A DNA stretch of 64,000 bases, from assembly GCA_048938855.1 (NCBI GenBank), contig JBHLLT010000002.1, positions 396,780 to 460,779 of the forward strand. Reading direction: 5' to 3'. Made by a program: the position numbers and the translations under genes. Origin of the DNA: Promethearchaeota archaeon. Its GTDB lineage: Archaea; Asgardarchaeota; Lokiarchaeia; Sigyniarchaeales; SOKP01. Below the pieces are notes generated by a model. That model was not told the DNA's origin, did not search any database, and saw nothing but the letters and a program-made list of their open reading frames with translations. This document shows, in pieces, positions 36,520-62,759 of the stretch. The first letter of the stretch is position 1; every line of letters starts with the position of its first letter.

Positions 36520-36621
36520 AGCCCCCGGTGGGACTTGAACCCACGACCGGCAGATTTTACAGAGTTTCTTATTAAGAGACGCTTTTACAAGTCTGCTGCT
36601 CTACCACTAAGCCACGGAGGC
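36520..36621 (-). tRNA. tRNA-Thr(UGU) with 30-nt anticodon-loop intron (~36556-36585); CCA not encoded
   Basis: Acceptor GCCTCCG/CGGGGGC, U73, anticodon stem GCAGA/TCTGC, loop CT-TGT-A, T arm GTGGGTTCAAGTCCCAC. Confidence 0.93.
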
Positions 36622-57086: not shown

Positions 57087-58181
57087 TTGGCATCTTTAAG
57101 TGAAAGTCAATTAAAGCATCAAAAAGAGGATGCTTACTTTCAAAAACTTGTATTTCAAAATGGACAAGAATATGGATTAAGATTTGCAACTCCTAAAGAT
57201 GCTAAAAATATTTCTCATATGTTTAAAGAAATTTATAATTATAAATATATTAATCCAACAGTGTATGATATTGAGCTTTTAAAAAAAGAAATCTCAAAAC
57301 CTAACAAGTTATGGGTCCTAAGCGATTTATTGGAAAAAAAGATGACTGTTGGTTGCGCTTTAGTTGAAAAAGAAAGATATATTGCCCATGCTGGTAGTTT
57401 AATCGTAAAGAAAGATTTTCAGGGTAGAGGAATTACTACCAAAATGGCGGCAGCCGGGCTTATAACAGTAACAAAAATGCCTCAATTTAATAACGTATTA
57501 AGACTTAATATTGAAGTTCGCGGTCCAAAGACTAGAGTACAAACTGCTGCTCAAAATGCAGGAGGAATACCTTATAGTATTATCCCCGATTATATTAATT
57601 TTGGTGATAAAAGAAATCTTGAATTTACTGATAATAACCCTTGTCCCCCCCAACAAGAGGAATCAGCAATACTTTTTTCAATGATATTTAGAAATCTATG
57701 GAAGAAAAGAGATAAAGACGTTTATCTTTTAGATAATGAAGACCTTCTTTTCTTATATAAATATATTCGAAGCCAAACCAAAAAAATGGCAGATGATACA
57801 GTAATTCTCAAAGACGCGAAAAAAGGTAAGGGATATGAACTTTACGGTGTTTCTAAAGATTATTATATGGCAAATGTAAAATTATTTGGCTATATTAAAG
57901 AAAAGTCTCTTAAGAATTTATTAAACACATATAAGAATTGGCGAATAATCCTTTGGAAAATTCCTACGACAGAAAATGGAATTTCTTCAATGTCTCTTGC
58001 ATTAAAGAAAGGATTTAAAGTAGTCGGCTATGATATAGGTTTTAATAACATAAATTGGACTTTATTTGATTCAGTAATACTAGTTTATTACCCAAATAAT
58101 AATTACATATTGTCAGATGTTAATTGTATCGACTCAATAAAACCTCTTTTTAACTTGATAAAGAAGCAATTTAAGAATTAA
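57087..58181 (+). CDS. GNAT-domain protein
   Basis: LRFATPKDA; VKKDFQGRGIT acetyl-CoA binding motif. Confidence 0.75.
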   Translation: MASLSESQLKHQKEDAYFQKLVFQNGQEYGLRFATPKDAKNISHMFKEIYNYKYINPTVYDIELLKKEISKPNKLWVLSDLLEKKMTVGCALVEKERYIAHAGSLIVKKDFQGRGITTKMAAAGLITVTKMPQFNNVLRLNIEVRGPKTRVQTAAQNAGGIPYSIIPDYINFGDKRNLEFTDNNPCPPQQEESAILFSMIFRNLWKKRDKDVYLLDNEDLLFLYKYIRSQTKKMADDTVILKDAKKGKGYELYGVSKDYYMANVKLFGYIKEKSLKNLLNTYKNWRIILWKIPTTENGISSMSLALKKGFKVVGYDIGFNNINWTLFDSVILVYYPNNNYILSDVNCIDSIKPLFNLIKKQFKN

Positions 58182-60717: not shown

Positions 60718-62184
60718 TTACTTTTTACGTTTAGGTTCAATTTTCTTTATTATAATTGATTCGGCGTGGATTTTACAGTTCTTAAGAATTACTTTGAAGC
60801 CACCAGCTCCACCAACACCTGGGATTGTCATACCAACAGTTCCCATAGGGACCATTGCACCTTCTTCTTCCCATTCTTCTTCCTCTTCTTCTACTCCACC
60901 CACAGCAGCTTTGAATTCTTCAGTTTCTATAATAGGATGACCAACTTTCTCCAACCAAGCAGGAAGCTGACTTAGATCGTCGACATCTTCTTCGGTAGCA
61001 ATTTTATCTCTTAAATCTTCTGGAAGGTACTCATAAACGCGATCTTTAACAGTTTTTCCCATCCATACGATTGTATAAATCCCTTCCTTTAAACCTACAT
61101 TTATACCGTCATATTTTTGGTATTTAGGTGATATAATGTATTGAATGCTGATTCCATTAAAACCGGGCATTTGTATCGGCTCTTTAACCTAATGGGTTAA
61201 AGAATTTCCGCCCCCGGTTTGATTGGCCATTGCTGAGAATGGTAATCCATTGATTGCTACACCATCAAAACTTCTATCAATAATTCCATGACCTGCACCA
61301 GTCTCGGGAATAAAGAAATCAATTGCCTCAAAACAACCGCAAGAGGTATGTGGAAATTCCATTCCTGAGTAGAGATAAATTCTATCGATTTCTCCTAATG
61401 ATCGCTTTTTTATCATTTCATTAACTCCAGTAAATTCACCTGCTAATTCATTTAAGCACTCTCCCATAGGAACTTCGAAAAGCGGGCCTTTCGGATCAAC
61501 TCTAGCAGCAGCTCTTGCGTCAAACCATGAAATAGAACCACATAAACTCATACGATTAGGTGTTATACAACAAGCGTGAGTGGGAGCAAAACTCTGGCAT
61601 AAAACACAACCATAAAACATATCTACATCTTCATCATTTATACTCCGTGCTCGTATATCTCTCTTTTCATAGATATCCATCGCATAATCATATGGATCTT
61701 TTATTTTATTTGGATCTGTATAAATTGTCACCTGTGCTTTCTTAATGATTGGCAGTTCAGCTTTATATAATCTTATAAGAACTGTTCCAAGCATATTGAA
61801 TGAATTAAACCCTTTTTCAAAAGCAGATTTAGAAATACGCATCCAATTGGTATATCTCTGGTTCAAATGCATTATTCCATTTACGAAATTACAAAATTCA
61901 TGAACTCTTCTTTCAAATACGGCTTCTAAATCTTCTTCAAGTTCAGGACCACTAACCTCAACCAAAATACCTATTGGATGTCTAGATCCTTCTTCCATAT
62001 CCTTAAGATCGGGACCAATAATTTTTACTTTTCCATCCTCAATTTCTTTGTCCGATTTAACTCTAACGAGTTCAAAATGCTTTTCAATCTTAGGTCCACC
62101 GAGTTCAACATACATTTGATTTCCCCGAATTCGCTCACCTTCATACACAGGTCCAACATCTACAGGCATGTCAGCAAAACTCAT
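60718..62184 (-). CDS. cdhC: Acetyl-CoA decarbonylase/synthase beta subunit, join(62184..61205, 61174..60718), 478 aa after removing the 30-nt insert
   Basis: YEGERIR, HLNQR, CVLCQSFAPTH, LCG, HTSCGCFE; second part PGF.GIS, IVW, IATE, acidic linker; the two called ORFs are in one frame, separated by a TAG. Confidence 0.9.
61175..61204 (-). other. Putative bulge-helix-bulge mRNA intron (30 nt) in cdhC
   Basis: TTCTTTAACCCATTAGGTTAAAGAGCCGAT: 9-bp perfect hairpin, in-frame TAG, 3-nt bulges AA^T and AT^A, flanking 8-bp exon stem AAACCGGG/CCCGGTTT. Confidence 0.75.
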
Positions 62185-62219
62185 ATTTAATTACTCCTCT
62201 TACATTTTTTTATATTCTT

Positions 62220-62759
62220 TTATAATTTTCCAATTAAATTTTCTAAAAATAATTTCCAATCTTCATCGCTCAGATTTGGTAAACTAAATCTGGCATTTGG
62301 ATGAGAATATTTATCTAATTCTACTGTTTTAACCCAGTTTGTAAAATTTTTGATCCTAGATAATGTTTGTGAGACATAAAATACTAAATGTCCACCGAAA
62401 ATTGCCATAGAATACTGACCTTCTCCGTCTAAACCAGTCCAATTTCTATCACATAATCGATTTGTGATATTAATTAACGACATATCATATAGCTTTCCAT
62501 CTGTGATTTTATCCTTGAGATAACTATAAGTATGGCCAGTGCTAACAACATGGCAATCAATTTTATTCGCAATATCTATTAAATAATCTGCAACCTTTCT
62601 CTCTCCGAGTTCCCAGTTTAAAGATTCCGCACCAATTACAATGACTTTCTTTTTAGGTGTTTTAAGAATATTAGCCATCACTGTAGGGTCTGAAACAGAA
62701 GTACCCATCTCAGGGCCAGGAATGTTTGCTTTTTGATATGGACGTGCCATTTCACTCAA
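62220..62759 (-). CDS. cdhB: CO dehydrogenase/acetyl-CoA synthase epsilon subunit
   Basis: PYQKANIPGP, W.GLDGEGQY, YVSQTLS, HPNARFSLPNL; directly upstream of cdhC. Confidence 0.88.
   Translation of the reverse strand: MSEMARPYQKANIPGPEMGTSVSDPTVMANILKTPKKKVIVIGAESLNWELGERKVADYLIDIANKIDCHVVSTGHTYSYLKDKITDGKLYDMSLINITNRLCDRNWTGLDGEGQYSMAIFGGHLVFYVSQTLSRIKNFTNWVKTVELDKYSHPNARFSLPNLSDEDWKLFLENLIGKL

What the first reader, a model, noticed from the sequence alone, without database searches (positions are those of the whole stretch)
61160..61220. Candidate bulge-helix-bulge mRNA intron in cdhC (acetyl-CoA synthase)
Seen: the mRNA strand reads AAACCGGG-GG-CGGA-AA^T-TCTTTAACC-CATTA-GGTTAAAGA-GCCG-AT^A-C-AAATG-CCCGGTTT. 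It has a perfect 9-bp inner hairpin carrying an in-frame TAG and a central helix CGGA/GCCG (3 WC pairs plus an A.G mismatch). Two 3-nt bulges flank that helix on opposite strands, and an 8-bp exon-exon stem is built from GC-rich synonymous codons (ACC GGG, CCC GGT) unusual in this AT-rich DNA. Known: archaeal splicing endonuclease cuts after the 2nd nt of each bulge. Applying this rule removes exactly 30 nt (61175-61204) and gives T-G-G-G-K-Q-M-P-G-F, matching the GG-K/T-Q-x-x-GF motif I recall for ACS beta subunits with no gap. The well-established archaeal mRNA intron is in crenarchaeal cbf5. Inference: EndA/RtcB-dependent mRNA splicing gates a Wood-Ljungdahl enzyme in an Asgard archaeon; unspliced mRNA gives a 331-aa truncated ACS. 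This is relevant to the origin of unconventional mRNA splicing such as Ire1-Xbp1/HAC1.
Basis: partly seen in the sequence, partly recalled or inferred. Interest (0 to 1): 0.96.

Follow-up and report, generated by a model that had tools for sequence, protein, structure and literature searches.

The report
tRNA-type mini-intron splits Asgard acetyl-CoA synthase
The only acetyl-CoA synthase gene of this Asgard archaeon is broken by a 30-base, stop-containing insert shaped exactly like a tRNA intron. Relatives carry such inserts at four different spots in the same gene, so the messenger RNA very probably has to be cut and rejoined by the tRNA-splicing enzymes, which the papers I could search show inside an archaeal coding sequence for only one gene (cbf5).

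Summary
Observation confirmed. The insert at 61175-61204 (minus strand) carries an in-frame TAG and forms a bulge-helix-bulge (BHB). Of nine registers tested, only the BHB cut restores GGGKQ, the junction in 118 of 120 homologues. A non-sister relative has an insert at the same site with three compensatory pair changes and no broken pair. Among 124 genomes with cdhC, 7 carry 8 BHB inserts of 29-30 nt at 4 sites, one of them frameshifting. Exon 2 is under purifying selection (dN/dS about 0.03). The genome encodes two EndA paralogues and RtcB but no PylS, and at least five unrelated genes carry similar inserts. Best reading (about 0.9): a real EndA/RtcB-spliced mRNA intron, one of a patchy family of mini-introns. 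No spliced RNA was seen. Gating of the Wood-Ljungdahl pathway is unsupported: the closest relatives lack the intron, and a ribosomal protein gene has one too. The Ire1 link is only the ligase. The scan already noted this class on other DNA (43 notes, at least 28 genomes, and other genes of this genome); I found no paper reporting it.

The parts
61205..62184 (-). cdhC exon 1 (acetyl-CoA synthase beta subunit, up to the first two bases of the Lys codon of GGGKQ); holds the A-cluster cysteine motifs
   Evidence: PF03598, PF19436
61175..61204 (-). 30-nt BHB intron with in-frame TAG
60718..61174 (-). cdhC exon 2 (rest of the C-terminal domain and acidic tail), under purifying selection
61207..61210 (-). 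5' (exonic) strand of the 4-bp central helix
61204..61206 (-). 5' splice-site bulge; predicted cut between 61205 and 61204
61181..61203 (-). inner intron hairpin: 9-bp stem and 5-nt loop; TAG at 61191-61189
61177..61180 (-). 3' (intronic) strand of the central helix
61174..61176 (-). 3' splice-site bulge; predicted cut between 61175 and 61174
61213..61220 (-). 5' arm of the 8-bp exon-exon outer stem
61160..61167 (-). 3' arm of the 8-bp exon-exon outer stem
62220..62759 (-). cdhB (CODH/ACS epsilon subunit), directly upstream and co-oriented
   Evidence: PF02552

Best explanation
The 30 bases are a true intron of the cdhC pre-mRNA. The transcript folds into a bulge-helix-bulge whose central helix pairs four exon bases with four intron bases. 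The two-subunit tRNA-splicing endonuclease EndA cuts after the second base of each bulge and RtcB joins the exons. This rebuilds the Lys codon of GGGKQ and gives the full 478-aa acetyl-CoA synthase. The intron is one of a patchy family of roughly 30-nt mini-introns in conserved motifs of many protein genes of this Asgard family. It is most likely tolerated and spliced routinely rather than being a dedicated switch. Shown: insert, fold, exact restoration of the motif, covariation, selection on both exons, presence of the enzymes. Inferred: cleavage, ligation, routine efficiency, and how the introns arrive.
For: (1) Of nine registers only the BHB register restores the conserved residue, and it has the best central helix. 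(2) 118 of 120 homologous proteins have GGGKQ with no insertion. (3) G016 has an insert at the same site: of 8 substitutions, 6 form 3 compensatory pairs, 1 turns the A.G into C-G, 1 is in the loop, and none breaks a pair. (4) Six more cdhC inserts at three other sites all fit the same geometry and restore the consensus. One is 29 nt and shifts the frame; one lies inside the YGCVLC cysteine motif, where the BHB register alone gives the invariant Leu. (5) Exon 2 dN/dS is 0.028-0.029, like exon 1 and like intronless pairs. (6) This is the only cdhC match in the genome. (7) Two EndA paralogues, one with the Tyr/His/Lys catalytic residues, and an intact RtcB are present. (8) Four more genes of this genome have 30-31-nt BHB inserts absent from relatives, and uL11 has a 37-nt insert with a perfect central helix.
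Against: No spliced transcript, excised circle or peptide was seen. The central helix has an A.G mismatch, the helix next to the 3' bulge is a single G-C pair, and the strict BHB fold is about 5 kcal/mol above the minimum-energy fold. An in-frame ATG lies two codons after the intron, so a two-chain product is formally possible at this site. The covariation rests on two sequences only (70 of 500 shuffles reach it).
Confidence: 0.9

Rival explanations
1. Regulated splicing: the intron is spliced, and its splicing rate is used to switch acetyl-CoA synthase on or off according to conditions.
For: An unspliced mRNA gives a 331-aa product that lacks about two thirds of the C-terminal domain, so activity would depend on splicing. 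The imperfect helix could make splicing tunable. In Haloferax, EndA depletion lowers a transcript with a BHB intron in its 5' UTR (PMC7714728).
Against: Only 7 of 124 genomes show an insert, at four positions. The closest relatives lack it. The same kind of insert occurs in unrelated genes, including uL11. No sensor or regulatory feature was seen. This is an add-on to the best explanation, not an alternative to splicing.
Confidence: 0.12
2. Split gene: the insert stops translation and the ribosome restarts at the ATG at 61170, giving a two-chain enzyme without splicing.
For: A 150-aa ORF starts two codons after the insert, and both parts are under purifying selection.
Against: It would drop the invariant Lys-Gln and add five foreign residues. 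It does not explain the conserved BHB geometry and compensatory changes. At the two upstream cdhC sites the next in-frame start is 8-33 codons away and A-cluster cysteines or domain cores would be lost.
Confidence: 0.04
3. Recoding: the TAG is read through (pyrrolysine or suppression), or the ribosome hops over the hairpin, giving a protein with or without a 10-residue insertion.
For: The insert is a multiple of three, and a hairpin surrounds the stop.
Against: No PylS reaches the family cut-off. The cdhC inserts carry TAG, TGA or TAA, sometimes two stops, and some are 29 or 31 nt. No homologue has a loop here. Ribosome hopping would not need exon-intron helices with 3-nt bulges.
Confidence: 0.03
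4. Assembly artefact or a dead gene hit by a small insertion.
For: The genome is an assembly with 7% estimated contamination. I could not see raw reads or an independent assembly of this allele.
Against: A diverged, covarying insert occupies the same site in another species. Exon 2 has no further lesion and dN/dS is 0.03. cdhB and CdhD/E-family genes are intact.
Confidence: 0.03

Closest known systems
cbf5 pre-mRNA intron of Desulfurococcales and Sulfolobales (Watanabe 2002; Yokobori 2009, PMC2738675)
   Same: Short intron inside a protein-coding sequence, bounded by a BHB-like motif and cut by EndA; size 16-44 nt there, 29-31 nt here; lost or absent in some relatives.
   Different: cbf5 is one RNA-modification gene with an intron inferred to be ancestral, and splicing was shown. 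Here it is a central metabolic enzyme of an Asgard archaeon, with four occupied sites, carriers that are not sister lineages, several other intron-bearing genes in the same genome, and no RNA evidence yet.
Archaeal tRNA introns with the hBHBh' motif, abundant in some Asgard classes (PMC11291895; bioRxiv 10.64898/2026.10.13.758758)
   Same: Same geometry (4-bp helix, two 3-nt bulges, part exon and part intron), same predicted enzymes, repeated independent gains with an unknown route of arrival.
   Different: The host is an mRNA. The preprint deals with tRNA genes only (no occurrence of 'mRNA').
BHB intron in the 5' UTR of Haloferax volcanii HVO_1309 (PMC7714728)
   Same: An mRNA substrate of the splicing endonuclease, seen as a circle and cut in vitro.
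   Different: It lies in the UTR (46 nt) and does not interrupt a reading frame.
Ire1-dependent splicing of XBP1/HAC1 (PMC13149111)
   Same: Short mRNA intron removed by a protein endonuclease and a tRNA-type ligase.
   Different: Ire1 cuts two separate stem-loops, is a stress-regulated kinase-RNase unrelated to EndA (own knowledge), and is a proven switch. Neither feature is shown here.

Membership tests
Archaeal BHB (EndA-type) intron | 4-bp central helix between exon and intron | tested here: met
   3 pairs plus A.G in the window; 4 of 4 in the same-site relative
Archaeal BHB (EndA-type) intron | Two 3-nt bulges on opposite strands, closed by an inner and an outer helix | tested here: met
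   9-bp inner stem; the outer side is one G-C pair plus an 8-bp stem after an internal loop, so slightly relaxed
Archaeal BHB (EndA-type) intron | Cutting after the second base of each bulge restores the host molecule exactly | tested here: met
   Only this register gives GGGKQ, as in 118 of 120 homologues
Archaeal BHB (EndA-type) intron | Structure kept while sequence changes; intronless alleles exist | tested here: met
   3 compensatory pairs and none broken in 2 sequences; 26 intronless alleles read at this junction; more covarying sets in other genes
Archaeal BHB (EndA-type) intron | EndA and RtcB encoded in the genome | tested here: met
Archaeal BHB (EndA-type) intron | Spliced RNA or excised circle in vivo; cleavage by EndA in vitro | not testable with these tools
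Pyrrolysine (TAG) readthrough | PylS in the genome | tested here: not met
   Best TIGR02367 score 23.8 bits against a cut-off of 178
Ire1-type regulated mRNA splicing | Two separate cleavage stem-loops at the intron ends | tested here: not met
   The two splice sites lie in bulges of one shared helix
Ire1-type regulated mRNA splicing | Condition-dependent splicing | not testable with these tools
   Needs transcript data; the patchy distribution argues against a conserved switch

The most novel reading that the evidence does not exclude
This Asgard family hosts a spreading family of roughly 30-nt EndA-spliced mini-introns that repeatedly enter conserved motifs of protein genes, at least four times in cdhC alone and at the same site in non-sister lineages. 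Many of its genes therefore have an exon-intron structure resolved by the tRNA-splicing machinery: a genome-wide, spliceosome-free mRNA splicing system in close relatives of eukaryotes.
Probability: 0.65. Interest if true: 0.92.

Novelty: new variant of a known kind. Interest (0 to 1): 0.82.

Why it matters
In the literature I could search, splicing inside an archaeal coding sequence is shown for one gene, cbf5. Here a central carbon-metabolism enzyme of an Asgard archaeon needs it, and the same gene has been hit at four places. First, genes called truncated or pseudogenes in these genomes may be intact, so metabolic reconstructions can be wrong. Second, cdhC gives a clean natural experiment on intron gain: present and absent alleles, different sites 19 bases apart, and a two-intron allele. 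Third, it shows that intron-laden mRNAs can be handled without a spliceosome in the lineage closest to eukaryotes. All of this can be tested with existing metatranscriptomes and a simple in vitro assay.

Tried and rejected
Look-up of the 331-aa product in public assemblies: not on record. Two pattern scans of metagenome contigs for the spliced or intron-bearing junction: no hits; the genome-contig scan returned only G016. No copy of the insert elsewhere in the genome, so it is not a high-copy repeat. De novo BHB scans were noisy, so I accepted candidates only after comparison with relatives; one candidate (C70 +107386) failed, because relatives keep the same bases. A search for matching tRNA introns in this genome gave no clear donor (ARAGORN intron calls were unreliable). 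The test for co-converted exon flanks was weak at the window's site (8 of 155 comparable pairs as similar) and suggestive for one pair at the neighbouring site (0 of 125); rows with L035 were out of register and are discarded. Promoter and terminator scans showed nothing above shuffles and no terminator-like site. Literature searches for Asgard mRNA introns found no paper.

Full report
Observation. The minus strand carries cdhB (62759-62220) followed by cdhC, identified by Pfam and by solved structures. The cdhC frame stops at a TAG at 61191-61189 and continues in the same frame to 60718. Removing 61175-61204 gives 478 aa with GGGKQMPGF; other registers give N, I or a stop. No shuffle of the insert in 100000 matched its pairing, and it ranked first among short frame-restoring BHB folds in the genome. 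The minimum-energy fold is a slipped form about 5 kcal/mol below the strict BHB. This is the only cdhC match in the genome. Homologue names point to Asgard archaea (Promethearchaeota/Lokiarchaeia-type), though submitters' names conflict: the same-genus genome G016 is titled Hermodarchaeota.

Intronless alleles. Twenty-six related loci read GGGKQM at this junction with no insert, as do 118 of 120 homologous proteins. The Methanosarcina-type structure entry 9c0s has the same motif without a loop. The insert falls about 47 residues into the C-terminal domain, after all A-cluster cysteine motifs, so the unspliced product would lack most of that domain.

Same-site relative. G016 has a 30-nt insert at the identical position. 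Of eight differences, six form three compensatory pairs (one in the central helix, two in the inner stem), one turns the A.G mismatch into a C-G pair, and one is in the loop. With two sequences this is not significant by shuffle (70 of 500), but no pair is broken. The two carriers are 79% identical in exon DNA and are not sisters: the AU test rejects one clade (p = 6.6e-06), and the window's closest relative lacks the insert.

Other sites in cdhC. Of 154 genomes of the order, 124 have a cdhC match and seven show stop-containing inserts. Site A lies inside YGCVLC (G101). Site B follows KGP (G018, 30 nt; G101, 29 nt, frameshifting). Site C lies in AMANQ, 19 bases upstream of the window's site (G004, G019, G123). 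Site D is the window's (G000, G016). All eight have a 3-4-pair central helix, A-rich bulges and an inner hairpin at a register that restores the consensus; in four of them that register is the only one that does. G101 carries two inserts. The site C carriers are not one clade either. Stop-free in-frame inserts would have escaped this survey, so the count is a minimum.

The gene is alive. dN/dS after the stop is 0.028-0.029 against three relatives, compared with 0.038-0.042 before it and 0.026-0.052 between intronless relatives. CdhD/E-family genes are intact elsewhere in the genome.

Machinery. The genome has two EndA paralogues, one with the Tyr/His/Lys catalytic residues and one without the His, which fits the two-subunit type, and one intact RtcB (residue roles from own knowledge). 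PylS was not found above the cut-off.

Not specific to this pathway. A blind scan followed by comparison with relatives confirmed four more inserts in this genome: AMP phosphorylase (30 nt, in DKHSTGG; present and covarying in 6 of the top 12 loci), a metallo-beta-lactamase-fold gene (30 nt), a family III CoA-transferase (31 nt, frameshifting) and a LOR-domain gene (30 nt, covarying). An interrupted ribosomal protein gene implies routine splicing, which argues against a special switch on cdhC.

Mechanism. Most likely the pre-mRNA folds into the BHB, EndA cuts both bulges and RtcB joins the exons (inferred from PMC2738675 and PMC7714728, where this is shown for cbf5 and for a Haloferax UTR). 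How the introns arrive is open. The same site in non-sister lineages needs repeated gain, lateral conversion or many precise losses. One lead: the site C insert of G123 and the window's site D insert share the same seven-pair inner stem, and G016 has the same exonic helix strand at sites C and D, so one intron may have moved between the neighbouring sites (inference).

Rivals. Readthrough fails on the mixed stop codons, the frameshifting inserts and the lack of PylS. A split gene is possible at this site because an ATG follows the insert, but it fails at sites A and B and does not explain the covariation. Artefact or pseudogene fails on G016 and on dN/dS.

Comparison and novelty. It works like, and on every testable feature is, an archaeal BHB intron. 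The known coding-sequence case is cbf5; a 2020 paper calls it the only other mRNA example. A 2026 preprint covers Asgard tRNA introns only. My searches found no paper on Asgard mRNA introns, though the library is incomplete and an earlier check in this scan mentions older predictions for other genes that I did not read. The scan noted this class before in other genomes and other genes; those notes are unchecked leads, not support. Verdict: new variant of a known kind, real with probability about 0.9, with regulation unsupported.

Noticed in passing
L040 (G000 C74, minus, about 52205): AMP phosphorylase with a 30-nt BHB insert in DKHSTGG; many family members show stops or split matches there.
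   Followed up: yes
L041 (G000 C70, plus, 92320): Metallo-beta-lactamase-fold gene with a 30-nt BHB insert after IPMH, absent in four relatives.
   Followed up: yes
L046 (G000 C55, minus, 34930): Family III CoA-transferase with a 31-nt frameshifting BHB insert, present in one of four relatives read at that site.
   Followed up: yes
L045 (G000 C6, minus, 135358): Zinc-ribbon/LOR-domain gene with a 30-nt BHB insert; two relatives carry covarying versions and three lack it.
   Followed up: yes
G000 C49 minus, about 57340-57460 (outside the window): uL11 gene interrupted by two stop-containing inserts; the first has a perfect central helix, the second was seen but not scored.
   Followed up: partly
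G000 C81 plus, about 88130: RNase HII gene with a stop-containing insert right after DEAG.
   Followed up: partly
G000 C34 minus 443685; C34 minus 528521; C64 plus 8308: Further 29-31-nt BHB-like candidates from the scan, not compared with relatives.
   Followed up: no
L036 (G101 cdhC): One cdhC gene with two inserts (30 and 29 nt), one between A-cluster cysteines.
   Followed up: yes
window about 36520-36621, minus: tRNA-Thr(UGU) gene with a predicted 30-nt intron, found only with intron search on; its BHB was not resolved.
   Followed up: partly
window 60718-62759: cdhB-cdhC stand alone, between an amidase gene and a leucine-rich-repeat gene; CdhD/E-family genes lie elsewhere in the genome.
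   Followed up: partly
L062: The record of G016, grouped in the same genus as the window's genome, is titled Hermodarchaeota; submitter names for close cdhC homologues also range over Odin, Hodar, Thor and Heimdall, suggesting mislabelled assemblies.
   Followed up: no
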